Positions 13,490 to 64,000 of a stretch of DNA of 64,000 nucleotides are shown here, one piece after another. The DNA lies in the NCBI GenBank assembly GCA_028707635.1, contig JAQWAQ010000001.1:51336-115335 (forward strand). Reading direction: 5' to 3'. The first letter of the stretch is position 1, and each line of letters starts with the position of its first letter. The translations under genes and the position numbers were made by a program. Under the pieces are notes generated by a model. That model ran no database searches and was not told the origin of the DNA. It worked only from the letters and a program-made list of their open reading frames with translations. The DNA comes from Negativicutes bacterium. Its GTDB lineage: Bacteria > Bacillota > Negativicutes > JAAYSF01.

Positions 13490-13664
13490 CAATGGCAACC
13501 TGGCAATCGTAGGAAAAAACCCTTAGACCCATAGCTTTGCGTCCTTACCTTTCGATAAGTTTGCCAATTTTTTCTATACTGTAGCATAATTTGTCGCAAT
13601 TAGCAATATTTTTTTTGCCCGAACATCCTAGTAACAGGACTTTGGGCCTACTACTTGCACTCCT

Positions 13665-15328: not shown

Positions 15329-15403
15329 TGGTAGCCCTAAGGGGAATTGAACCCCTGACTCCGCCTTGAGAGGGCAGCGTCTTAACCACTTGACCATAGG
15401 GCC
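15329..15403 (-). tRNA. tRNA-Glu with anticodon CUC and an encoded CCA
   Basis: I folded the reverse complement GGCCCTATGGTCAAGTGGTTAAGACGCTGCCCTCTCAAGGCGGAGTCAGGGGTTCAATTCCCCTTAGGGCTACCA by hand into a cloverleaf. It has a 7-bp acceptor stem, a D-arm, an anticodon stem CTGCC/GGCGG with loop CTCTCAA (U33, anticodon CTC, A37), and a T-arm AGGGG-TTCAATT-CCCCT. It lies directly downstream of gltX. Confidence 0.8.
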
Positions 15404-23298: not shown

Positions 23299-23330
23299 AA
23301 AGTGCATGAATTGTCAAGGGGACGGGGTTG
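23299..23330. repeat. REP-like palindromic element flanking the RAYT gene on its 3' side
   Basis: TTGTCAAGGGGACGGGGTTGTTGTCAGG is the reverse complement of the units on the other side of the transposase gene. Confidence 0.8.
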
Positions 23331-23342
23331 TTGTCAGGATTT

Positions 23343-24113
23343 TTATGCTTTAAAAACAATTCCTCTATTAATCCCCGTGAGCCTTTCAATTTGTCGAATC
23401 GATAACTTATGCTTCTGCTTCAGTATTCTTAAGTACGTATTTCTTGTTTGAGAATCAACCTTCTGCAAATCTATTCCACTTTTTAAGTTACAAACCGTTT
23501 TTATTATTGCTCTTGCTTCTTCGTCCGTAATTCGCTGCTTGAACTCATCGTCAATATCTAAACAACATTCATGGTCACTACCATCATTGATGTATTTTAT
23601 AAATTTTTGTCTTCCGTTTTCGCAATCATCGCTTAGCATATCCATTAGAAGATTTATGGTTACCAAGTTTGCTTGATTTACATATTCATGAAAGCTACTC
23701 CATTTATATTCTTCAACGTTTTTTACTAGTCCAGCTTTAACTGGATTTTGATGAATATATCTTAGCACTGTTTGAAAGTATTGATCGTTTTCCACTGGCT
23801 CACTCTTAAATCGGTCTTGAAATAGATTCCCAATTCTCTGATATTTATTATTATACCAATACACATAGCTTCCGCATAACCGGCGCATTACTTGTTCCAA
23901 TGGCTCTATTCCTATTTTCAACAGCAGGTGTACATGATTCCCCATCAGACAATATGCATAGATTTCATATTTACTTTTTTCTTTATAGCGTTGCAGCGCC
24001 TCTAGGAATTGGGCACAATCTTCTTCGTCTTCAAAAATTGTCTGACGGTTTATTCCGCGCATGAGTATATGGTAAATTCCGCTGCAACTTTTTTTTCTTG
24101 CTGTTCTTGGCAT
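23343..24113 (-). mobile_element. REP-associated tyrosine transposase (RAYT, IS200/IS605-like Y1 HuH transposase) with a C-terminal DnaA-C-like HTH domain
   Basis: MPRTARKKSCSGIYHILMRGINRQTIFEDEEDCAQFLE...AYCLMGNHVHLLLK carries the HuH motif, and the catalytic-Tyr region is present. The C-terminal HTH reads LSIRQIERLTGINRGIV. It is flanked by inverted REP copies at 23299-23330 and 24151-24214. Confidence 0.85.
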
Positions 24114-24150
24114 GCTCTCACCCCTAAACTCATTGTATTTTACATTTCTA

Positions 24151-24214
24151 TTGTTGTCAACAACCCCGTCCCCTTGACATTTTGTTGTCAACAACCCCGT
24201 CCCCTTGACATTTT
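24151..24214. repeat. Tandem doublet of a REP element upstream of the RAYT gene
   Basis: Two direct copies of TTGTCAACAACCCCGTCCCCTTGACATTTT. Each is itself a palindrome, TGTCAA-N13-TTGACA. Confidence 0.85.
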
Positions 24215-42100: not shown

Positions 42101-42204
42101 CAATACTGCAATTCATAGATACATTAATTATAGTTTAATCTTGCGACTGCTCATTCCATATGTGGAAAATTGCAGGTTTTTTGGTGAAATTGGAGAAATA
42201 CGAC
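42101..42204 (-). promoter_or_regulatory. Conserved promoter module, copy A, upstream of the SLH gene: a TATAAT -10 box plus two 9-bp direct repeats (CAATTTCAC / CAATTTTCC) with 20-bp phasing
   Basis: About 85% identical over ~100 nt to 46706..46805. In transcript orientation the repeats lie at 42184-42192 and 42164-42172. TATAAT lies at 42126-42131. Confidence 0.6.
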
Positions 42205-42753: not shown

Positions 42754-45700
42754 TTATGGATCTAGTGGTGTTAGCTTTATTTCAACAAGGGTATATGGAT
42801 CATATGTGCCGGCTCCGGGGGCAATCGTTGCCGTTACGGTATTACTGGCATAGCCAGTCATGCTCGCTGTAAAGGTCACTTCGCCGGACGGAACAGATTC
42901 AAATCTAGCATAGCCGTACACGTTCGTGGTTTTTGAAGTTCCACCCTCCAGAGTTACCGTAGCGCCTTGGAGAGTATTGGTGCCGCTTTTGACTGTGACC
43001 TGGGCTTTACCTGGTAACCTATCCAGAACAATCACCTGCTCATTAGTGCCTTCATTGACTGTCACCCCCTGCATCATGCCTTGGTAACCATCTTTGAGTG
43101 CGGTATAGAAGTAGCTTTGTGTCGATACGTTAGTCGGCACTTTCGTTAATGTAAACTTACCATCTGCGCCTGAATACCCTAATACTTTCTTAGGATTAGA
43201 GTAACTTTCGCTAATTTCTGCTCCGCTGATCGGCTGACCCTTGCTGTCTTTAACTATCAAAGTTAAATCGCCGACCTTGTGAACGATAGTCAGATTAACG
43301 GAGTTGTTCTCCTCTGATATAGAAATAGTCTTACTGTCATCGTTATAGTTGTTACACGTTGTGGTAAAAGTATAGTCTCCGGCGGGCACACTAAAGGATA
43401 CATTCCCATAGCTGTCAGTTGTTTTAGTTTGGTCAACGCCATTACCTGTAACGCGCACGCTTGCACCCCACACATTTTTCTCAGCGTCGTCTTTGACATT
43501 AACTTGAGCAGTAATTATTTTATTGATCGTCAAAGAAATGTTGCCAGTGATACTTCTGGAGATTGTCACGCTTTGGGACTTACTTTCATAACCGGTGCAA
43601 GTTATATCAAAGGTATAGTTACCGACAGGGAGGTTTGTAAAAGAAACTTTACCGTCAGCGCCGCTATTTTTATCAATCTTACTGCCGTTTACAGTTACAG
43701 AGATTTTAGCTCCGGGAACCGGCCCTGAGCCGCTAGTCACTATAAAGTCCACGCTGCCCATTGCCGGCAAAGTTATTGTCGTGCTCGCCGGAGTATCGGC
43801 TGCAATTGTTACGACAGCAGTCTTACTGTCATAGCCTGATGTGGCGGTAAAGGTGTACTGACCGGTGGGGATGGAGGTAAATGTTGCTTCCCCTTGTGCA
43901 TTAGTTGTTTCTGTTTTTACTTGACCATTCACTGTCACGCTGACAGTTATGCCGCTAATGGGGTTATCGCCGTCCGTGACCGTAATCTTCGCGCCGCCGG
44001 TCTGGCGGGTTAAGGCGATGCTTGAGGTCGCTGTGGCTCCGTTTGCTATGACTACGTCACTTGCTGTACCGCTGACGTAATCCGCCTTAGTGGCTGTGAA
44101 GGTATATGTGCCGGTCGGGATGTTTGCAAAGATCACCTCGCCGTTAGCGGCGGTAGTCGCCGTTTGCTCCTGACCGTTTAGCGTCACTTTGACAGTGACT
44201 CCGCTAAGCGGTGCTGTGCCATCAGTAACCGTGATCTTTGCATTACCTGTCTGGCGTGCTAGGGCTATGGCTGCAGTCGCTGTTGTTCCGTTTGCTATGA
44301 CTACATCGCTTGCTGTACCGCTGCCGTAATCCGCCTTAGTGGCTGTGAAGGTATATGTCCCTGTCGGTATGTTCGCAAAGGTCGCCTCACCGTTAGCGAC
44401 GGTAGTTGCCGTTTGCTCTTGGCCGTTTACAGTCACTTTGACAGCGACTCCGCTAAGCGGTGCTGTGCCGTCAGTAACCGTGATCTTTGCTCCGCCGGTC
44501 TGGCGAGTTAAGGTCACATCGGCAGTAGCTATTGAGCCGCCGGTTATGGTTGTGCTTATTGTGTTGCTGTTATAATCTGCCTTCGTTGCTATAAAGGTGT
44601 AGGTTCCTACTGGCAGATTCGTAAATGCCGCCACACCGTAATCATCGGTAACAGCCGTCTGGGGTTGGCCGTTTACCGTCACGCTGACGGCTGCTCCGCT
44701 AAGCGGTGCATTAGAATCATCTTTAACAGTAATGTTTGCTCCGCCGCCCTGTGGTGTCAGAGCAATCGCCGCAGCTACCGTCTCTTTGTCGGCAACAGCT
44801 GTATTTACACTTTTGCCGCTGTAGTTGGCAGCGCTGGCAGCTACTGTATAGGTTGAACCGGCTGTCAGACCGCTAAAAACGGCTGTGCCGTCGCTGCCGG
44901 TGGTTTTTGTATCAATAACATTGGAACCGCTTTTCAGCTCGACTGCAGCGCCGTTTATGACTGCTTTACTGACTGCGTCGATAATCATTGCCACAATGTT
45001 GCCTCCGCTGGCTGGTAATACGACGGTAGAATTGCTTGTCGAGCCGTCTGCTACGCTTACCGCCAAGCTTTTCATCTCTTTGCCGCTATAGGCAACCGTG
45101 AATTTGTAGTTCCCCGGCGGTAAATTCGGGAATGTGGCTATACCGCTTGCATTGGTAACTGCCGTCACTTTGAAACCGGCAGCCGCATAGGCTGTCTTAA
45201 CTCCGAGAATTCGGTCAAAGAGACTCTTGTCGGCCGCACCATACAGCCCGTCTGCAGTTTCGGCGGTAACTGTCGCGCCGCCAACATCTGCCCCGGCTTC
45301 ATCCAGTACATGGATAAACGCTTTGCCGCCAAGAATGGCTAAAGCAATAGGAGGAACGGTTGTAGTTTGGTCTTTTTGTACAATCACCGCCGAGCTAGTG
45401 CTGCTAATGCTGAAATAGGAGGCGCGTACTGTATAATCTCCTGCATCCAGGCCGCTTAACACCGCTATGCCATTTGCGTCGGTTATCGCTACCGCGCCGA
45501 CCGGACTACCGTTTTGATATGCTTGCACTTGCGCGTCTTGCAGTGCTGCACCGCTGCCATTGGTTACTGTTACGCTTAAGCTGCCGGTGTAAGCGACAAA
45601 TTTAGTAAAGGTTTCGGTTTTGATATCATTTTCCCGTTGCACCTTTTGCAAGATCTTATGACTGATATCATTCGACCGCTCTTGGGGATTGCCGCCATGC

Positions 45701-46632: not shown

Positions 46633-46705
46633 TCCTCCTCACTTTCTTTAAATGAAACTGCATTTTTATTGATACATCACAAAACCCCTCTACAAACTTT
46701 AAGTA

Positions 46706-46805
46706 TTGCAATCCATAGTTAAATTAATTATAGCTAAATCTTGCAGCTATTAATTCCATATAAGGAAAGTTGCAGGTTTTTGGGTGAAATTGGCGAAATA
46801 AGAGA
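46706..46805 (-). promoter_or_regulatory. Conserved promoter module, copy B, upstream of the giant adhesin gene
   Basis: Repeats GTGAAATTG (46784-46792) and GGAAAGTTG (46764-46772) on the + strand, TATAAT at 46728-46733, and the same 20-bp phasing as copy A. Confidence 0.6.
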
Positions 46806-49049: not shown

Positions 49050-49410
49050 ATTTAGTTTACCCAACTTTATATTTCGTTTGGTCCGGTTCATTTATAAGTT
49101 CATAACGACTTACAGCCTTATCAAAGGTAGGAACTACTGTTAGTGTTTGTTTAAGGATTCACAGGGACGGTTCTTCCGATTCTAATCGTCCTATTAAGCT
49201 TCACAAATAATGAATTTACCGTAGAAATACCAAGTTCCTGCAAATTGGTATAACCTTCTGCCGGAACCTTGACTATTTTTGTAGTTGTCACGGGAAGTTG
49301 TCCCCTTGACAGCTTTTCCTATTTAGGGGTAATTTAGGAGGACAAGATCGTAAAAGGTTGAATTATATATAATACATTATTACATTGGAACACACACAGG
49401 GAGGGTATTT

Positions 49411-50304
49411 ATGCGAAAAAGTTGGATTGTGGTCATATTAACAGCTTTATTGTTATTGACAATTTCTAGTACCGTTTTAGCAAATTCCACGAAAAGAATC
49501 GGTGTGCTGACCTTAAATAACGACAGCTCATACACACAATTTGGATCTATTGCCGCTGAAACAATTACTGCTGATTTAGCGAAGCTAAAATCTTGTGTTG
49601 TCGTTGAACGAAACGAGTTATCTAGCGTTTTTGCTGAACAAAGCTTTGGTGCCAAAGGATACATTGATGAAGCAACAGTTACAGAATTAGGCGGGATCCT
49701 TGGTCTGAACTACCTGCTAATGGGTTCTGTTGATTGCGATTCGGTGAAAGAACGTGGGCACTATTATTATAATAAAAAACATAAGCGAAATGAATGGATA
49801 GACGGAACCCAAAAGACAACTGTTATGCTTACTCTAAAATTAATTGATGTCAAAAACGGACACATCGTTTGGTCAGATCAATCAAGCGTTACTAATTATA
49901 ACGACGATATTAACATCACTCTTGCCGAAGCAGCGTATGATTCTGTACGAAAAATATATAAATTTATTCCCTTGCAGGGTTATATAATTAAAAACGACGC
50001 TGGCCAATATATTATTGATTTAGGCACTAATCACAATGTTACTACTGGTGATATTTTTGAAGTAAATAGCGTCAACAGCACTATTCACCATCCTGTAACT
50101 GGTGAACTTATTGTAATGAAAAAAAATGTTGGCGAACTTAAAGTAACAGAAGTTTTTGATTCCATTTGTGCTGCTAAAATCAAAGATTCAGATGACGAAA
50201 AAGCAATGGAAAATATTCAACCTGGAGATATTGTAGTAAAGAAATTAAAGAAAAAGCCACGTGGCTTCTTGGGGTTAGGCTGGTCAGGCAAACACGATTT
50301 TTAA
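49411..50304 (+). CDS. CsgG-family-like (curli secretion/LpoB-like fold) secreted protein
   Basis: Signal peptide. KRIGVLTLNNDSS...AETITADLAKLKSCVVVERNELSSVFAEQSFGAKGYIDEATVTELGGILGLNYLLMGSV matches the CsgG-family pattern. Confidence 0.65.
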   Translation: MRKSWIVVILTALLLLTISSTVLANSTKRIGVLTLNNDSSYTQFGSIAAETITADLAKLKSCVVVERNELSSVFAEQSFGAKGYIDEATVTELGGILGLNYLLMGSVDCDSVKERGHYYYNKKHKRNEWIDGTQKTTVMLTLKLIDVKNGHIVWSDQSSVTNYNDDINITLAEAAYDSVRKIYKFIPLQGYIIKNDAGQYIIDLGTNHNVTTGDIFEVNSVNSTIHHPVTGELIVMKKNVGELKVTEVFDSICAAKIKDSDDEKAMENIQPGDIVVKKLKKKPRGFLGLGWSGKHDF

Positions 50305-50311
50305 AAAAATA

Positions 50312-50341
50312 AGGACAGTTGCAAATTTGCAACTGTCCTTA
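50312..50341. terminator. Bidirectional terminator
   Basis: AAGGACAGTTGCAAATTTGCAACTGTCCTT is a perfect hairpin, followed by ATTTTTTGTT. Confidence 0.85.
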
Positions 50342-50349
50342 TTTTTTGT

Positions 50350-51444
50350 TCACTTAAGGGAAATGGTAATACAATTGTTGGATACTTCGATGACTTTAAT
50401 AGGTAATTGAGGCATAGCTTCTAGCTGTTCAGCTAACACAGTCGGAGATCCCGTGTAGTTAACATCAAGCATAGCAACTCCTTGTTGAAAATCACGTAAA
50501 AATACATTGGCAATGCCTGTTTGCTGCTTAATTGAGCGATTTAATAAATTGACAATGGAATAGTCATTGACTCCCATAACTTTAATTTGAACACCCTTTT
50601 CTGGGTTGGCTGCATAGGTTAGAAGTTTTTCGGCAAAATATTTGCCTGCAGCTTTACCGGCATTGTTTAGAGACTTTTTAGCGGCCGTTAATTCTGTTAT
50701 ATCAATACCGCCAAGCTGAAAACCTTGCGCAGCTATAATCTCGCCTGTATCCACCTTGATCATTCTGGCTTCTACTCGGGCGCGACAGGATATAATACTG
50801 CCTCCCATATCCCGACCGGCATACTCGGCAAAACCTTCTCCTACGATTAAGTAATCCATCCTGTCTTTTAGCATCATCAGAAGAGCTGTTTGACTATCTC
50901 CTTGAATTATTGCCTTTACAGTGTCCGACTGACGGATTTGAGCTAAGCTATCGGGATCTACAATCCTACGAAATCCGGCTTCGGCTAATTGATCGATAAC
51001 TGCTGTTTCGGCAGCTGAATCAGAGATAGGCCGTATGTAGTATTCTTTAATTACGACACCAATTCGCGGATCACGCAACCCCATATCAATTAGTTTTAAA
51101 CGTTGAAGTTTTGTCATTAAGGTTGAGTTGGGCTGTGAGTCAACTGTTACATGGGCCTGCAATGTAAATACACCGTTCGCTTCTTTCTCACTTATAATAG
51201 TATAGTCACGGATATATCCCTGTGATTTTGCATATATCTCATCTTTTAACACCATATTGTTTTGCACCAGCGTTTGAGAGTCAATTAAAGTTCCCACCGC
51301 TTGCTCAACGGCCTGGCGCATGGCGTCATGCAGCGCCGCCTCACGCGTTGGCCCTTGCCCGTCTACAAGGACTGTCTGTGCTGATACCAACAGGCATTGT
51401 GAAATTACAATTAATGTGATAACCATGATTTTTAATGCTTGCAA
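50350..51444 (-). CDS. Secreted multi-domain protein with LPP20-like and CsgG-like modules
   Basis: Signal peptide. The N-terminal LPP20-like region reads REAALHDAMRQAVEQAVGTLIDSQTLV. The central CsgG-like segment reads PRIGVVIKEYY...YLIVGEGFAEYAG. Confidence 0.55.
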   Translation of the reverse strand: MQALKIMVITLIVISQCLLVSAQTVLVDGQGPTREAALHDAMRQAVEQAVGTLIDSQTLVQNNMVLKDEIYAKSQGYIRDYTIISEKEANGVFTLQAHVTVDSQPNSTLMTKLQRLKLIDMGLRDPRIGVVIKEYYIRPISDSAAETAVIDQLAEAGFRRIVDPDSLAQIRQSDTVKAIIQGDSQTALLMMLKDRMDYLIVGEGFAEYAGRDMGGSIISCRARVEARMIKVDTGEIIAAQGFQLGGIDITELTAAKKSLNNAGKAAGKYFAEKLLTYAANPEKGVQIKVMGVNDYSIVNLLNRSIKQQTGIANVFLRDFQQGVAMLDVNYTGSPTVLAEQLEAMPQLPIKVIEVSNNCITISLK

Positions 51445-52966: not shown

Positions 52967-53227
52967 AAGTTACACCAGCAAACTCAAGGCTCAGAGACTC
53001 ATAGTAGCGACTTTTCCTATTTTCTTGAAAGCCGTGAGCGATTAAAAGAAGAAATTCGTCGCATTATATTACAGAATACAGACGAGCAGGAGCCTTATGA
53101 AATTGCAGGCTGGCTTAAAACAAATCGAAATTCTTTAATCCACGATTTTAAAGAAAATGCTAGCCTTTCGATTCGCCAGATTGAGCAGGCAACCGGTATA
53201 TCTTATGGTGTTACCGCAAAAAGCTGA
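52967..53227 (+). pseudogene. Remnant of a RAYT-type transposase C-terminal (DnaA-C-like HTH) domain
   Basis: ..ASLSIRQIEQATGISYGVTAKS* parallels ..LSIRQIERLTGINRGIVFKA* of the intact transposase at 23343..24113. It has no start codon and no catalytic domain. Confidence 0.5.
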
Positions 53228-53235
53228 CAAGAAAA

Positions 53236-53409
53236 GAACGTCAGGCTGTGCGAAAACAAATTCCCATAAATTCCATTCACCACCCAGATATTAAAACCAG
53301 GCACTAACATTGAATTTAGGAACAAAATAATAGTGGAATATCGCTGATGCCCTCCACTTTTTCGGTATTTTCCCGACCAACTTGGAGTTTCCGCACAGCC
53401 TGACGTCCC
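53236..53409. repeat. Inverted repeat with 22-bp arms enclosing ~130 bp (MITE-like or hairpin element)
   Basis: GAACGTCAGGCTGTGCGAAAAC (53236-53257) pairs with GTTTCCGCACAGCCTGACGTCCC (53387-53409). The arm sequence is related to the GGAACGTCCCC..CTGTCC motif seen at 23001, 60041 and 63362. Confidence 0.6.
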
Positions 53410-57404: not shown

Positions 57405-57849
57405 AGATATCCCCTCTATCTCAATTTCTATATTGTCTATAATTAGTATTCTTCACTGATTTGCCACTCCCTTCGTCTTTTAATCATATTAAACATCTAT
57501 CATAAACAGTTCAATACTTTCCATGATAGAAAAAGTCATAAATCCTTATTGCATAATGATTCAAAAGGAAGCAACGGGACGGTTCTTTTGCTTCCTCATA
57601 GAACCTTTTTTCCTAAAATCCAAACGAAATGAAGCACCAGAACCGCCCCATTGCTTTTACTTGCTTTAAATAAAATACGGCAAATCCCGATAATAGTTTC
57701 TAAAAAATCCACCCTAAAACCAAAAGAAAAACGCTCTGACCACAAGTGTCAAAGCGTATTCCCGAGGCCGTTCAGAATTGCCCAGATGCTAGGCGGCTGC
57801 GAGGAAGCGCGCTCCCGGAGCACCAACAACGCAGGTGGTTAATTATGGG

Positions 57850-59367: not shown

Positions 59368-59874
59368 TTAGCGAGCCGCAGTATTTCGGTCAAGCACACC
59401 GACGCCAAGATAGGCGCGAACAACTCGACCTTTTTCAATAACAGACTGAAGAATCGGCCGGGCGGTATTGATGGGAATTGCAAATCCGATGCCTTCAACG
59501 CCTGCCACGGCAATCTTGGCGCTATTGATACCAACGACAACTCCGTCAGCATTCACCAATGCCCCACCTGAATTGCCGGGATTGATGGCTGCGTCGGTTT
59601 GAATGAGTTTAAATTTACGTTCACCGATTTCAATTGACCGATTCAGAGCGCTAATAACGCCAACAGTGACGCTCCCCCGAAATTCCATACCCAGCGGATT
59701 ACCAATAGCAATAGCAGGTTCGCCGATCAGCAAACCGTCTGAATCACCTAAGACAGCGGTAGGCAATCCGGTTGTGTCGACTTTAACCACCGCAAGGTCA
59801 GTAGCCGGGTCAACTCCTAAAACCTTACCGTTAAAGGTCCGTCCGTCGGCCAGATCGATTTTCAAGTCATGCAA
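59368..59874 (-). pseudogene. Truncated HtrA/DegP-family serine protease fragment. It retains the Ser-active-site region but lacks the N-terminal His region and the PDZ domain.
   Basis: ..FNGKVLGVDPATDLAVVKVD...TDAAINPGNSGGALVNADGVVVGINS.. The fragment has no proper start and is cut at 59875 by the repeat element. Confidence 0.7.
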
Positions 59875-59914
59875 TACCCTCAGTAAGTGGGTATATCACT
59901 CTTATCTGCAAAAA

Positions 59915-60075
59915 CGTGTTGATGATTAACGCCTCGGAACACTATATGATAAAAGCCGCTGCTGCTTAATTGTCGCGATTGCCTTCCCATTTATCATCAC
60001 CGCTGACGATAGCATATCAAAATAATGACAAAAAAGGAACGTCCCCTACTGTCCTTGTCATCGTGAAAAGGTTGC
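59915..60075 (+). repeat. About 160-bp dispersed element, copy 1 (about 75% identical to 63240..63395). It ends in a TGACAA..TTGTCA palindrome around GGAACGTCCCC.
   Basis: aaaacgtgttgatgattaacgcctcggaacactatatgataaaagcc...aatgacaaaaaaggaacgtcccctactgtccttgtca. Confidence 0.7.
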
Positions 60076-63083: not shown

Positions 63084-63197
63084 TTCCGGGCCGGTAAGGA
63101 AAAAGCGGGGTCAAAAAAGTGGGGTCAGGCCTTACATTGTTGCATTTCTTGATGTAACACAATAACACAACACCTACTGAACGTCCAACGTCCAAAG

Positions 63198-63226
63198 GTG
63201 TCAATAACCCCGTCCCCTTAACACCT
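63198..63226. repeat. REP-like palindromic element
   Basis: GGTGTCAATAACCCCGTCCCCTTAACACC, with the same CCCCGTCCCC core as the RAYT-flanking REPs. Confidence 0.75.
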
Positions 63227-63239
63227 AATCACATACTCC

Positions 63240-63395
63240 CTCGAAAATATGTTGATGGTTAATACCACGGAAAACTATATGATAGAACCCTGTACTGCTT
63301 AGTTGCCTCACTTTCCTACCCACAGTCCCTCACCTCTATCCACAATTATGACAAAAAAAGGAACGTCCCCAGCTGTCCCGAAAAGTTTGTGTAAA
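63240..63395 (+). repeat. About 160-bp dispersed element, copy 2. An IS256-family transposase N-terminal remnant follows it.
   Basis: cgaaaatatgttgatggttaataccacggaaaactatatgatagaaccc...tatgacaaaaaaaggaacgtccccagctgtccc. Confidence 0.7.
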
Positions 63396-63457
63396 TATGT
63401 CTTCCTGAATGGCAAGAATAGGAATAAAACTATTCAAGTCAGCAAGGAAGATTTTTT

Positions 63458-63560
63458 ATGTCAGCGATTCCAAAGAAAGTAATTAACGAGCTAATTCGAG
63501 AGCAAAAATTCAGCAATACTACCGAAGTCATGAATCCATGCTGGCGGATTTGTGTGTCAT
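63458..63560 (+). pseudogene. N-terminal remnant of an IS256-family (mutator-type) transposase
   Basis: MSAIPKKVINELIREQKFSNTTEVMNP.. resembles the N-termini of IS256-family transposases (..ELIKEN.ITTTEDI..). It is truncated after ~35 aa and runs into REP copies. Confidence 0.45.
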
Positions 63561-63623
63561 GGGGAAGGGGTTACCGACAACCTTTCTCTATTGTAATGTC
63601 AATAACCCCGTCCCCATGACACC
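63555..63623. repeat. Inverted pair of REP-like elements (BIME-like)
   Basis: TGTCATGGGGAAGGGGTTACCGACAAC (63555-63581) and TGTCAATAACCCCGTCCCCATGACACC (63596-63623) are in opposite orientations. Confidence 0.7.
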
Positions 63624-63724
63624 TATGTAAATAGACTTTCAGAGTAAAGGGCAATATCATACAAGAATGCTATTACCTCTTATGTTACACTAAATATTAG
63701 ATAATCAGGAAAGGGGGAAAGTTT

Positions 63725-64000
63725 ATGAAACAGGAGATAAGAGCAGTAAAGTATGACGCCCAATTGAAAGTGGAAGCCTATCATTTTCAAGGAATTATGC
63801 AGAAATTCCCCAATCATTTTCATGACTATTACGTGATTGGTTTTATTGAAAAAGGTCAACGTTTTTTATCTTGCAAGAACAAGGAATATACTATAGAACC
63901 GGGAGATTTATTACTGTTTAATCCGCGTGATAATCATGCTTGCGAACAAATCGACGGTAAAACGCTGGATTATCGCTGTATCAATATCCAACCGGAAATT
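63725..64000 (+). CDS. AraC-family transcriptional regulator. The N-terminal cupin/effector domain is present and the 3' end runs off the window.
   Basis: MKQEIRAVKYDAQLKVEAYHFQGIMQKFPNHFHDYYVIGFIEKGQRFLSCKNKEYTIEPGDLLLFNPRDNHAC.. is preceded by a GGGGGAAAG RBS. It is absent from the ORF track because it is open at the window end. Confidence 0.75.
   Translation, partial: MKQEIRAVKYDAQLKVEAYHFQGIMQKFPNHFHDYYVIGFIEKGQRFLSCKNKEYTIEPGDLLLFNPRDNHACEQIDGKTLDYRCINIQPEI

What the first reader, a model, noticed from the sequence alone, without database searches (positions are those of the whole stretch)
23299..24214. An intact RAYT (REP-associated tyrosine transposase) with cognate REPs, and a dispersed REP family sharing a CCCCGTCCCC core
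The Y1 HuH transposase gene has a single REP on its 3' side and a tandem REP doublet in the opposite orientation on its 5' side, which is the textbook rayT-REP arrangement. Related palindromes recur at 49284-49312, 57567-57595, 63198-63226, 63555-63623 and in partial form elsewhere (49151, 54155, 56355). They are often attached to the GGAACGTCCCC..CTGTCC motif (23001, 60041, 63362, with arms at 53236 and 53387). This RAYT carries an unusual C-terminal DnaA-C-like HTH domain, and a decayed second copy of that domain lies at 52967-53227. RAYT/REP systems are mostly characterised in Proteobacteria. A complete, apparently active system in a Negativicute with a fused HTH domain is worth noting.
Basis: partly seen in the sequence, partly recalled or inferred. 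Interest (0 to 1): 0.5.

Follow-up and report, generated by a model that had tools for sequence, protein, structure and literature searches.

The report
Tyrosine transposase gene with inverted-repeat ends
This is an intact small mobile-element-like gene, a single-strand DNA-cutting tyrosine enzyme fused to a DNA-binding domain and bracketed by 25-base inverted repeats that are also scattered through the genome; the class is already described but little studied, so this is a good new example and not a new kind of system.

Summary
A 255-aa Y1 HUH gene (23343-24110, minus strand) has one 25-nt repeat just after its stop codon. An exact 31-nt tandem pair in the opposite orientation lies 45 nt upstream. 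Three more copies lie at 63199-63621.

The protein scores as REP-associated (NCBIfam 88.5 bits, cutoff 80; best fold match E. coli TnpAREP) and not as IS200 TnpA. The repeats, however, are not classical REP palindromes: single units barely fold, there is no GTAG tag, and the arms show no compensatory changes.

The unit matches the published "TIRtron/TIRYT" class (Di Nocera 2013), equated with TnpAY1 subclass 2.1 (Quentin 2018). In that class a C-terminal HTH extension is a reported feature, so it is not unusual. Its DnaA likeness is weak here.

The GGAACGTCCCC..CTGTCC motif is the terminal repeat of a second, decayed lineage; gene fragments sit beside it.

Observations I did not find in the papers read:
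- The 25-nt repeat is nearly invariant across many Bacillota lineages, while the protein drops to 54-67% identity.
- Head-to-head dimers occur in one polarity only.
- The gene's -35 box lies inside the repeat.
- The outer end alone carries partial "stutter" duplications, and these differ between samples.

Verdict: new member of a known kind.

The parts
23343..24110 (-). Intact 255-aa Y1 HUH tyrosine transposase-like gene (stop codon 23343-23345). The Y1 catalytic domain is about aa 1-146 (23673-24110). A poorly modelled linker covers aa 179-191. The C-terminal helical HTH domain is aa 196-255 (23346-23525).
   Evidence: ORF. Pfam Y1_Tnp 7e-17. NCBIfam REP_Tyr_transpos 88.5 bits (cutoff 80). 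Invariant H59, H61, Y118, N122. AlphaFold model, mean pLDDT 82. Foldseek best hit 4er8 TnpAREP, E 4e-8.
23312..23336 (-). Downstream terminal inverted repeat (TIR-1). It starts 7 nt after the stop codon. On the coding strand it reads TGACAACAACCCCGTCCCCTTGACA.
   Evidence: The same position relative to the stop codon is seen in L011, L014, L030, L069, L120, L121 and L123.
24151..24212 (+). Upstream TIR-1 as an exact tandem duplication of a 31-nt unit. The 25-nt cores are at 24155-24179 and 24186-24210, inverted relative to the downstream copy.
   Evidence: family D6, 100% identity.
24132..24160 (-). Promoter-like site of the gene: -35 TTGACA (24160-24155, which is the inner end of the proximal TIR), a 17-nt spacer, then -10 TACAAT (24137-24132).
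   Evidence: The scan gives 11 of 12 consensus matches. TTGACA-17 nt-TAxxxT recurs in L011, L014 and L030. The inner-end TTGACA is also present in L015, L069, L121 and L123, whose -10 I did not score.
63199..63223 (+). Solo TIR-1 copy with 2 mismatches. It abuts the truncated end of a lineage-2 gene fragment.
63554..63621 (.). Head-to-head inverted dimer of TIR-1 (63554-63579 minus, 63597-63621 plus, 17-nt spacer). It resembles a REPIN or MITE and folds into a long hairpin.
   Evidence: I8, 88% complementary. (-22.8 kcal/mol, z -6.6).
49284..49312 (+). Partial TIR-1-like palindrome (TGTCAcGGGaAg..GTCCCCTTGACA). It may be a remnant or a footprint. Membership is uncertain.
   Evidence: Fold -6.9 kcal/mol, z -3.2.
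60026..60054 (+). TIR-2 (TGACAAAAAAGGAACGTCCCCTACTGTCC), the upstream terminal repeat of a second, decayed lineage. Its GGAACG core (from 60036) lies 45 nt from the fragment's ATG.
59883..59990 (-). N-terminal fragment of a lineage-2 gene (MGRQSRQLSSSGFYHIVFRGVNHQHVF...), truncated near aa 33-35 and fused to an N-terminally truncated trypsin-like protease gene (59371-59874).
   Evidence: tblastn 44% identity, E 3e-6. Translation. Trypsin_2 profile matched only from position 33.
63349..63378 (+). Second TIR-2 copy (TGACAAAAAAAGGAACGTCCCCAGCTGTCC), upstream of a second lineage-2 N-terminal fragment.
63237..63320 (-). Second lineage-2 N-terminal fragment (GRKVRQLSSTGFYHIVFRGINHQHIFEG), truncated at about aa 28, next to the solo TIR-1 at 63199-63223.
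   Evidence: tblastn 56% identity, E 6e-5..
53048..53252 (+). Decayed C-terminal HTH fragment (...LSIRQIEQATGISYGVTAKS*, stop codon 53225-53227). Its stop overlaps a TIR-2-like repeat, TGACAAGAAAAGAACGTCAGGCTGTGCG (53225-53252). An inverted partner arm lies at 53387-53404.
57567..57655 (.). Third related repeat family (GGAAGCAACGGGACGGTTCTTTTGCTTCC) present as an inverted dimer. A solo copy lies at 49153-49182.
   Evidence: (D18). Folds: single unit -7.7 kcal/mol, z -3.0; dimer -18 kcal/mol, z -4.4.

Best explanation
The locus is a compact unit of about 900 bp of the 'TIRtron' type. It holds one gene for a Y1 HUH single-strand DNA endonuclease/transposase of the TnpAREP/RAYT branch, fused to a C-terminal helix-turn-helix domain. 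The gene is bracketed by 25-29 bp terminal inverted repeats (consensus GGTGTCAAGGGGACGGGGTTGTTGACA ... TGTCAACAACCCCGTCCCCYTGACACC).

Shown here:
- The gene is intact and its catalytic residues are conserved.
- The repeat-gene-repeat geometry is the same in relatives from many Bacillota lineages.
- The repeat is also scattered, mostly between genes. It occurs as solo copies, tandem copies and head-to-head dimers of one polarity only.
- An internally deleted intermediate exists.
- Close homologues sit in unrelated genomic neighbourhoods.
- Decayed copies of a sister lineage with its own repeat lie in the same window.

Inferred:
- The enzyme mobilises its own unit, or did so until recently, and mobilises the gene-less repeat dimers in trans. 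The process would resemble REPIN or MITE mobilisation.
- The Y1 domain cuts and rejoins single-stranded DNA at or near the conserved CGTCCCC core or the outer end.
- The nearly invariant HTH (LSIRQIERLTGINRGIV) supplies sequence-specific recognition of the nearly invariant repeat.
- The -35 box of the gene's own promoter lies inside the repeat, so binding there would also autoregulate expression.
- The partial 'stutter' duplications, found only at the outer end and differing between samples, are by-products of cleavage and rejoining, or of repair, at that end.
For: Family assignment:
- NCBIfam REP_Tyr_transpos scores above its cutoff and IS200 far below.
- The best PDB fold match is TnpAREP 4er8, covering the whole 165-aa chain.
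- HUH, Tyr and Asn are invariant in 26 homologues.
- The literature describes RAYT-like genes with C-terminal HTH extensions flanked by TIRs carrying GGGGWSAS, and not by REPs. Here the TIR carries GGGGACGG.

Geometry: the arrangement TIR - about 45 nt - ATG ... stop - TIR recurs in L011, L014, L015, L030, L069, L120, L121 and L123, at 54-85% protein identity. The TIRs there have 0-3 mismatches in 25.

Dispersal:
- 106 of 119 genome loci that hit the motif have no gene match within the 8 kb held.
- Unselected positions -7 to -1 are 76-90% conserved.
- The 14 loci with no full-length 25-mer match (mostly non-Bacillota records) look like chance hits and serve as an internal control.
- Repeat centres are mostly extragenic: 14% lie in open frames of 600 nt or more, against 68% of random positions.

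Derivatives:
- There are 19 head-to-head dimers with spacers of 4-63 nt and none of the opposite polarity.
- L118 holds TIR + last 30 codons + TIR.

Mobility hints:
- Homologues at 80-85% identity lie in three unrelated contexts.
- Gene fragments and a deletion junction with a truncated protease gene lie in the window.
- L121 carries a tandem duplication of TIR + promoter + 30 codons.

Stutter:
- A copy's own outer 7-mer recurs just outside it in 33 of 137 copies. The inner 7-mer recurs inside in 0 of 116.
- L123 and L124 are the same insertion but differ by a 12-nt stutter unit.

Promoter inside the TIR.

HTH and TIR co-variation: the lineage-2 fragment has a changed recognition helix (ISYGVTAKS) and a different repeat.
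Against: - No empty site or target-site signature was found, so transposition is inferred and not shown.
- Only one intact copy is visible in 64 kb, and the genome-wide repeat count for this organism is unknown.
- The TIR matches the published GGGGWSAS motif at only 7 of 8 positions.
- The protein was not placed on the published trees, so 'subclass 2.1' and 'Group 1' rest on shared features.
- HTH binding to the TIR and autoregulation are inference. Quentin et al. themselves doubted that the C-terminal domain recognises the repeats.
- The Sporomusa silvacetica copy has lost its start codon, so some copies are decaying rather than active.
- No copy was found on viral contigs, and no close copy on plasmids, so a horizontal-transfer vehicle is not identified.
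Confidence: 0.65

Rival explanations
1. Classical domesticated RAYT/REP (REPIN) system. A single-copy, vertically inherited enzyme maintains a population of palindromic REP hairpins, which it recognises as single-stranded stem-loops.
For: - NCBIfam names the protein a REP-associated tyrosine transposase, and the fold is closest to TnpAREP.
- The repeats are extragenic and form REPIN-like head-to-head dimers that fold strongly.
- Each unit has short inverted arms, and three sister families keep inverted arms of different sequence.
Against: - Single units fold weakly (z about 0 to -3.2).
- There is no GTAG or other 5' tag.
- Within the family, arm variants break pairing instead of compensating.
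- Close homologues are not syntenic.
- Several decayed gene copies lie in one 64-kb window.
- The repeat is shared across many Bacillota lineages, whereas each tnpAREP gene is reported to have its own REP family.
- Published searches found no REPs next to HTH-bearing subclass 2.1 genes.
Confidence: 0.2
2. The repeats are primarily host regulatory or architectural sites, and the protein is a domesticated site-specific DNA-binding or nicking factor with no mobility. The repeats would act as operators or promoter elements, since both ends of each repeat carry TTGACA-like hexamers.
For: - TTGACA at the inner end serves as the -35 box of the gene's own promoter in several taxa.
- The outer end also reads YTGACA pointing outward.
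- The arms TGTCA-N15-TGACA have the layout of a dimeric HTH operator.
- The repeat sequence is extremely conserved across taxa.
Against: - The outer hexamer is TTGACA in only about 42% of copies.
- The following are hallmarks of mobile or recombinogenic DNA and not of operators: non-syntenic gene positions, internally deleted derivatives, gene fragments, deletion junctions and polymorphic terminal stutter.
Confidence: 0.1
3. An ordinary IS200/IS605-family insertion sequence whose TnpA recognises subterminal hairpins.
For: Pfam places the N-terminal domain in Y1_Tnp, 'Transposase IS200 like'. IS608, ISDra2 and IS200 TnpA structures are significant fold matches.
Against: - The IS200 equivalog model scores 19.3 bits against a cutoff of 55.
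- The protein is about twice the size, with an extra HTH domain.
- The ends are inverted repeats and not two different subterminal hairpins.
- There is no tnpB partner gene next to it.
Confidence: 0.03

Closest known systems
TIRYT / TIRtron (Di Nocera et al. 2013, BMC Genomics 14:522), equated with TnpAY1 subclass 2.1 (Quentin et al. 2018, BMC Genomics 19:475)
   Same: - A RAYT-like Y1 HUH gene flanked by terminal inverted repeats instead of REP hairpins.
- The repeat carries a GGGG-W-S core (here GGGGACGG).
- The repeats form moderately abundant families present as singles, dimers and clusters.
- The protein is among the longest of the superfamily because of a C-terminal HTH extension.
   Different: - The published motif GGGGWSAS is matched at only 7 of 8 positions.
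- Pfam Bac_DnaA_C, HTH_23 and HTH_28 are not detected in this protein; only weak HTH_19 hits appear in 13 of 26 homologues.
- Placement on the published tree was not tested.
- None of the papers read mentions cross-lineage invariance of the 25-nt repeat, outer-end stutter, or the promoter inside the repeat.
E. coli TnpAREP (YafM, PDB 4ER8) with REP/BIME
   Same: - Best structural match (Foldseek E 4e-8, 164 aligned columns).
- The same HUH, Tyr and Asn active-site residues.
- The gene is bracketed by inverted copies of a dispersed extragenic repeat.
   Different: - E. coli TnpAREP is 165 aa with no HTH domain.
- It binds an imperfect REP hairpin with a GTAG tag and cuts at CT dinucleotides.
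- Here the units are weak palindromes with a 13-nt 'loop' that holds the conserved core, and they have no GTAG.
REPINs (Bertels and Rainey 2011) and bacterial MITEs
   Same: Head-to-head dimers of the repeat with short spacers form long hairpins, lie between genes, and have the polarity of the two ends of the full unit. An internally deleted intermediate (L118) links the full unit to the dimers.
   Different: REPIN-RAYT systems are described as single-copy, vertically inherited and lineage-specific. Here the gene is non-syntenic among close relatives, and the repeat is shared across many Bacillota lineages.
RAYT Group 1 (Bertels, Gallie and Rainey 2017)
   Same: Group 1 is described as the largest and most widely distributed RAYT group, found in Clostridia among others. 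[quoted passage not shown] All of this fits what is seen here.
   Different: Membership was not tested, because no reference sequences were available.

Membership tests
RAYT / TnpAREP (REP-associated tyrosine transposase) | [quoted passage not shown] | tested here: met
   NCBIfam NF047646 88.5 bits (cutoff 80) against IS200 19.3 (cutoff 55). H59/H61/Y118/N122 invariant and aligned to E. coli H59/H61/Y115/N119. Foldseek top hit 4er8.
RAYT / TnpAREP (REP-associated tyrosine transposase) | Gene flanked by REPs: 20-40 nt imperfect palindromic hairpins, usually tagged by GTAG | tested here: not met
   Inverted flanking repeats are present, but the 3' unit folds at z about 0, there is no GTAG, and the arms show 0-2 compensatory against 16-39 pair-breaking variants per pair.
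RAYT / TnpAREP (REP-associated tyrosine transposase) | Cognate repeat highly abundant genome-wide | not testable with these tools
   Only 64 kb of this genome is available (6 copies). In relatives the truncated scan gives lower bounds of 10 loci in one Pelotomaculum MAG and 9 in one Eubacteriales MAG.
RAYT / TnpAREP (REP-associated tyrosine transposase) | Single-copy, vertically inherited (syntenic) gene | tested here: inconclusive
   Homologues at 80-85% identity lie in three unrelated neighbourhoods, and three related gene fragments lie in the window. No same-species comparison was possible.
TIRYT / TIRtron = TnpAY1 subclass 2.1 | RAYT-like gene bracketed by terminal inverted repeats that are not REPs | tested here: met
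   The same geometry is seen in 8 other loci.
TIRYT / TIRtron = TnpAY1 subclass 2.1 | TIR carries the GGGGWSAS motif | tested here: inconclusive
   The TIR has GGGGACGG, 7 of 8 positions.
TIRYT / TIRtron = TnpAY1 subclass 2.1 | C-terminal HTH extension (Bac_DnaA_C, HTH_23 or HTH_28-like) | tested here: inconclusive
TIRYT / TIRtron = TnpAY1 subclass 2.1 | Phylogenetic placement within subclass 2.1 | not tested
IS200/IS605 insertion sequences | TnpA of about 130-150 aa that passes the IS200 model, ends with distinct subterminal hairpins, no TIRs | tested here: not met
   IS200 model 19.3 bits (cutoff 55). The protein is 255 aa with an extra domain. The ends are inverted repeats.
REPIN (non-autonomous inverted REP doublet) | Two repeat units in inverted orientation with a short spacer, forming a long hairpin, dispersed between genes | tested here: met
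   Window 63554-63621: -22.8 kcal/mol, z -6.6. 19 such dimers of one polarity in relatives. Extragenic bias. Mobilisation itself was not tested.

The most novel reading that the evidence does not exclude
These units could be an unrecognised, still active and very widespread insertion-sequence-like family of anaerobic Bacillota. Its mechanism would differ from both IS200/IS605 and RAYT/REP. A fused HTH would read a 25-bp double-stranded terminal repeat that is almost invariant across many Bacillota lineages. The Y1 domain would cut at the CGTCCCC core or the outer end. The polar, polymorphic terminal 'stutter' would be the footprint of that reaction. This would make the untested TIRYT / subclass 2.1 branch experimentally tractable.
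Probability: 0.3. Interest if true: 0.6.

Novelty: new member of a known kind. Interest (0 to 1): 0.38.

Why it matters
Quentin et al. report subclass 2.1 / TIRYT enzymes as the second largest branch of the Y1 HUH transposase superfamily. I found no biochemical work on them in the papers I searched, and the published surveys disagree on whether they have cognate repeats at all.

This locus and its relatives give a clean, conserved substrate:
- a defined 25-29 bp repeat with fixed spacing to the gene;
- gene-less dimers of a single polarity;
- a polar end-stutter that differs between samples.

These features make direct tests possible of what the HTH domain binds and where the tyrosine cuts. 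For genome annotation, the result also shows that 'REP-associated tyrosine transposase' calls in Bacillota refer to TIR-flanked units and not to classical REP systems.

Tried and rejected
- **Exact-protein contig lookup for the gene:** not on record, so the source genome could not be retrieved. Assignment to Sporomusaceae/Negativicutes rests only on best hits: Sporomusa silvacetica 84%, Acetonema 77%, Lucifera 73%.
- **Longer ORF from TTG at 24194:** rejected. It runs through the repeats, whereas the ATG at 24110 has an RBS and matches the start of all homologues.
- **Hairpin covariation:** flanking pairs are at most marginal, and the arms show no compensation.
- **Rfam:** nothing at any repeat.
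- **Search for intact lineage-2 genes:** The seven metagenome loci carrying TIR-2 have no adjacent gene. HTH/TIR co-variation therefore rests on one comparison.
- **Horizontal-transfer vehicles:** no TIR-1 in 2.9 million viral contigs, and no homologue of 60% identity or more on PLSDB plasmids.
- **C-terminal profile against 1.84 billion representatives:** 1,496 hits. The top 150 are family members or short fragments, with no DnaA-sized protein among them.
- **Target-site duplication or empty site:** not found. The L123 insertion next to an integrase-like fragment could not be resolved.
Full report
**1. What is in the sequence**

The finding's coordinates hold one intact ORF on the minus strand, 23343-24110. 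It is 255 aa from an ATG preceded by AGGGGTGA. A longer TTG-initiated reading runs into the repeats, and I rejected it because all homologues start at MPR(K/T)AR.

A 25-nt sequence lies seven nucleotides after the stop codon, at 23312-23336. On the coding strand it reads TGACAACAACCCCGTCCCCTTGACA. Its inverted counterpart lies 45 nt upstream of the ATG as an exact tandem duplication of a 31-nt unit (24151-24181 and 24182-24212).

The 10-nt core occurs 5 times in the window against 0.05 expected. The 25-mer with up to 3 mismatches occurs 5 times against 0 expected. The other copies are a solo copy at 63199-63223 and a head-to-head pair at 63554-63579 / 63597-63621.

- 57567 and 49153 carry a different motif, GGGACGGTTCTT.
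- 49284 shares only the outer 12 nt.
- 54155 and 56355 are too short to judge.

**2. The protein**

- Pfam finds Y1_Tnp over aa 12-122.
- The NCBIfam equivalog model for REP-associated tyrosine transposases scores 88.5 bits (cutoff 80). The IS200 model scores 19.3 bits (cutoff 55).
- An AlphaFold model (mean pLDDT 82) matches E. coli TnpAREP (4er8) best, with E 4e-8 over 164 columns, ahead of IS200, ISDra2 and IS608 TnpA.
- H59, H61, Y118 and N122 are invariant in 26 homologues. They align with the E. coli active-site residues H59, H61, Y115 and N119.

The gene therefore looks functional and belongs to the TnpAREP/RAYT branch.

Residues 196-255 form a confidently modelled five-helix domain (pLDDT above 90) that ends in the nearly invariant LSIRQIERLTGINRGIVLKA. 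Its DnaA-C likeness is weak:
- Pfam shows no Bac_DnaA_C hit, only weak HTH_19 in 13 of 26 homologues.
- Profile searches of PDB sequences find nothing.
- hhalign against E. coli DnaA domain IV is not significant, although it picks the expected register.
- Foldseek finds nothing below E=1.

The conclusion is that this is an HTH-type DNA-binding domain, and DnaA-IV-like only loosely.

**3. The repeats are terminal inverted repeats and not classical REPs**

- A single unit has only a 5-6 bp A/T-rich stem (TGTCA/TGACA) around a 13-nt C-rich 'loop'.
- The 3' copy folds no better than shuffled sequence (z about 0). The inverted pair at 63554-63621 folds at -22.8 kcal/mol (z -6.6).
- There is no GTAG tag.
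- In 190 copies collected from other genomes, variants in the five arm pairs break pairing 16-39 times per pair and compensate 0-2 times. Pairs just outside the arms show at most marginal covariation.
- Three sister families in the window keep short inverted arms of different sequence around an A-rich + CGTCCC(C) segment: TIR-1 TGTCA/TGACA, TIR-2 GACA/TGTC, TIR-3 GGAAGCA/TGCTTCC.

That layout fits either a large-loop hairpin or a two-half-site operator for a dimeric HTH. I cannot tell which.

**4. Relatives elsewhere**

- In 105 of them the unselected upstream bases complete the motif. Positions -7 to -1 are 76-90% conserved, giving the consensus G[G/T]TGTCAAC-AACCCCGTCCCC-YTGACAC[C][C].
- These loci come almost entirely from Bacillota: Syntrophomonas, Pelotomaculum, Desulfotomaculaceae, Peptococcaceae, Ca. 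Formimonas, Desulfosporosinus, Dehalobacterium, Lucifera, Sporomusa, Pelosinus, Sedimentibacter, Wukongibacter and others.
- The 14 loci with no full-length 25-mer match, nearly all from other phyla, look like chance hits and act as an internal control.
- Only 13 loci hold a gene match, so most copies are dispersed away from a gene.
- Repeat centres avoid long open frames: 14% lie in frames of 600 nt or more, against 68% of random positions.

Where an intact gene is present, the geometry matches the window: repeat, about 45 nt, ATG ... stop, repeat. This is seen in L011, L014, L015, L030, L069, L120, L121 and L123. In these loci the protein is 54-85% identical and the 25-nt repeat has 0-3 mismatches.

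At least 7,923 of the 8,000 scored 90%-identity cluster representatives match the protein. The best 120 are nearly all 253-257 aa and cover 94-100% of the query. A C-terminal-domain profile finds 1,496 clusters at 50% identity.

**5. Evidence bearing on mechanism**

(a) *Head-to-head dimers.* Dimers with spacers of 4-63 nt are common (19 cases) and always have the polarity of the two ends of the full unit. The opposite polarity is never seen at short range.

(b) *Deletion intermediate.* L118 holds repeat + last 30 codons + repeat. This links full units to dimers, as for MITEs and REPINs.

(c) *Different contexts.* Homologues at 80-85% identity lie in three unrelated gene neighbourhoods. None is next to LemA or the small zinc-ribbon gene that flank the window's copy.

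(d) *Decayed sister copies in the window.* There are two N-terminal fragments of a sister lineage and one sister-type C-terminal fragment.
- N-terminal fragments: 59883-59990 and 63237-63320. Each has TGACAAAAAAGGAACGTCCCCnnCTGTCC about 45 nt upstream of its start, which is the same geometry as the intact gene.
- C-terminal fragment: 53048-53227. Its stop codon overlaps a related repeat.
- TIR-2 also occurs in seven metagenome contigs, as solo copies and head-to-head dimers with no gene beside them.

(e) *A deletion junction.* One fragment is fused to an N-terminally truncated protease gene.

(f) *Recurrent truncation point.* Four independent N-terminal fragments end at aa 28-36: two in the window, plus L076 and L121. 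In L121 this is a tandem duplication of repeat + promoter + 30 codons.

(g) *Promoter inside the repeat.* The inner end of the upstream repeat supplies the -35 box of a promoter matching 11 of 12 consensus positions: TTGACA, 17 nt, TACAAT (24160-24132). TTGACA-17 nt-TAxxxT recurs in L011, L014 and L030.

(h) *Polar stutter.* In 33 of 137 copies, the copy's own outer 7-mer recurs just outside the repeat as a partial tandem duplication. Many units begin at CGTCCCC and include 2-4 flanking bases. The inner 7-mer never recurs inside (0 of 116).
- TIR-2 shows the same stutter.
- L123 and L124 are the same insertion in two samples and differ by one 12-nt stutter unit, so the stutter is dynamic.

**6. 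Comparison with what is known**

- Di Nocera et al. 2013 described RAYT-like genes flanked by terminal inverted repeats instead of REPs ('TIRtrons', enzymes 'TIRYT'). These share a GGGGWSAS motif and have moderately abundant repeat families present as singles, dimers and clusters.
- Quentin et al. 2018 placed 20 of the 26 TIRYTs in TnpAY1 subclass 2.1, the second largest subclass. It is characterised by a C-terminal HTH extension (Bac_DnaA_C, HTH_23 or HTH_28-like). They reported that no REP-like sequences could be found next to these genes.
- Bertels et al. 2017 described a large RAYT Group 1 that is widely distributed (including Clostridia), somewhat IS-like, and has moderately frequent flanking 16-mers.

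The locus fits these descriptions in every feature I could test, with three exceptions. The repeat has GGGGACGG, which is 7 of 8 positions of the published motif. None of the three Pfam HTH models is detected. I could not place the protein on the published trees.

The best name is therefore a TIRtron-type unit. It works like a RAYT/REPIN system in outline, but it fails the defining 'flanked by REP hairpins' test.

I found no paper describing this family in Sporomusa, Syntrophomonas or Pelotomaculum. None of the papers read mentions the cross-lineage invariance of the repeat, the promoter inside it, or the polar stutter.

**7. Verdict**

- Observation: confirmed.
- Interpretation: partly supported.
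- Novelty: a new member of a known but uncharacterised kind.

Mobility, the cleavage site and HTH-repeat recognition are inferred and not shown. No empty site was found, and the genome-wide copy number in this organism is unknown. Interest is moderate at 0.38. Nothing here contradicts current understanding, but the conserved substrate and the polymorphic end-stutter give concrete handles on a large, untested branch of HUH transposases.

Noticed in passing
L001-L124 and window; e.g. L094, L087, L011, L025, L036; L123 versus L124: Polar 'terminal stutter'. Partial tandem duplications of the outer 7-16 nt of the repeat plus 2-4 flanking bases occur in 33 of 137 copies outside the repeat and in 0 of 116 inside. 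One 12-nt unit differs between two samples that carry the same insertion. TIR-2 shows the same feature (L128, L129).
   Followed up: partly
window 59883-59990 and 63237-63320; L076 3681-3785; L121 about 5836-5934: Four independent N-terminal gene fragments all end at codon 28-36, around the IFED / GAAGACGAAGAAG stretch. This suggests a breakage or recombination hot spot inside the gene. In L121 it takes the form of a tandem duplication of repeat + promoter + 30 codons.
   Followed up: partly
L118 about 4900-5080: An internally deleted unit, repeat + last 30 codons + repeat (about 150 bp), in Wukongibacter baidiensis. It is an intermediate between full units and gene-less dimers.
   Followed up: partly
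window 59371-59874 (-): A trypsin-like (HtrA/DegP-type) protease ORF that lacks its N-terminal part; the Pfam profile matches only from position 33. It is joined directly to the lineage-2 transposase fragment, so this looks like a deletion junction.
   Followed up: partly
window 63100-63135: GCGGGGTCAAAAAAGTGGGGTCAGG: two GGGGTCA motifs 13 nt apart at the edge of the repeat-rich intergenic region 63084-63725. This may be another stuttered repeat end.
   Followed up: no
window 13491-13575 (-) and 15332-15403 (-): A c-di-GMP-I riboswitch (77.5 bits) and a tRNA gene (Rfam gathering hits).
   Followed up: no
window 43841-44751: Three to four tandem copies of a 249-nt unit (61-90% identity). This is probably a repeated domain inside a large coding sequence.
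   Followed up: no
window 42104-42203 and 46704-46803: A 100-nt direct repeat (83% identity) 4.6 kb apart. It brackets the region that holds the 249-nt tandem repeats.
   Followed up: no
window 50304-50347: A perfect 22+22 nt palindrome (AAAAAATAAGGACAGTTGCAAA/TTTGCAACTGTCCTTATTTTTT) between the convergent ORFs 49411-50304 (+) and 50350-51444 (-). It is likely a bidirectional terminator.
   Followed up: no
L120 5940-6000 (Sporomusa silvacetica CP155573.1): The closest named homologue (84% identity) has lost the ATG and first codons; its annotated product starts at MYHII. This suggests that copy is decaying.
   Followed up: no
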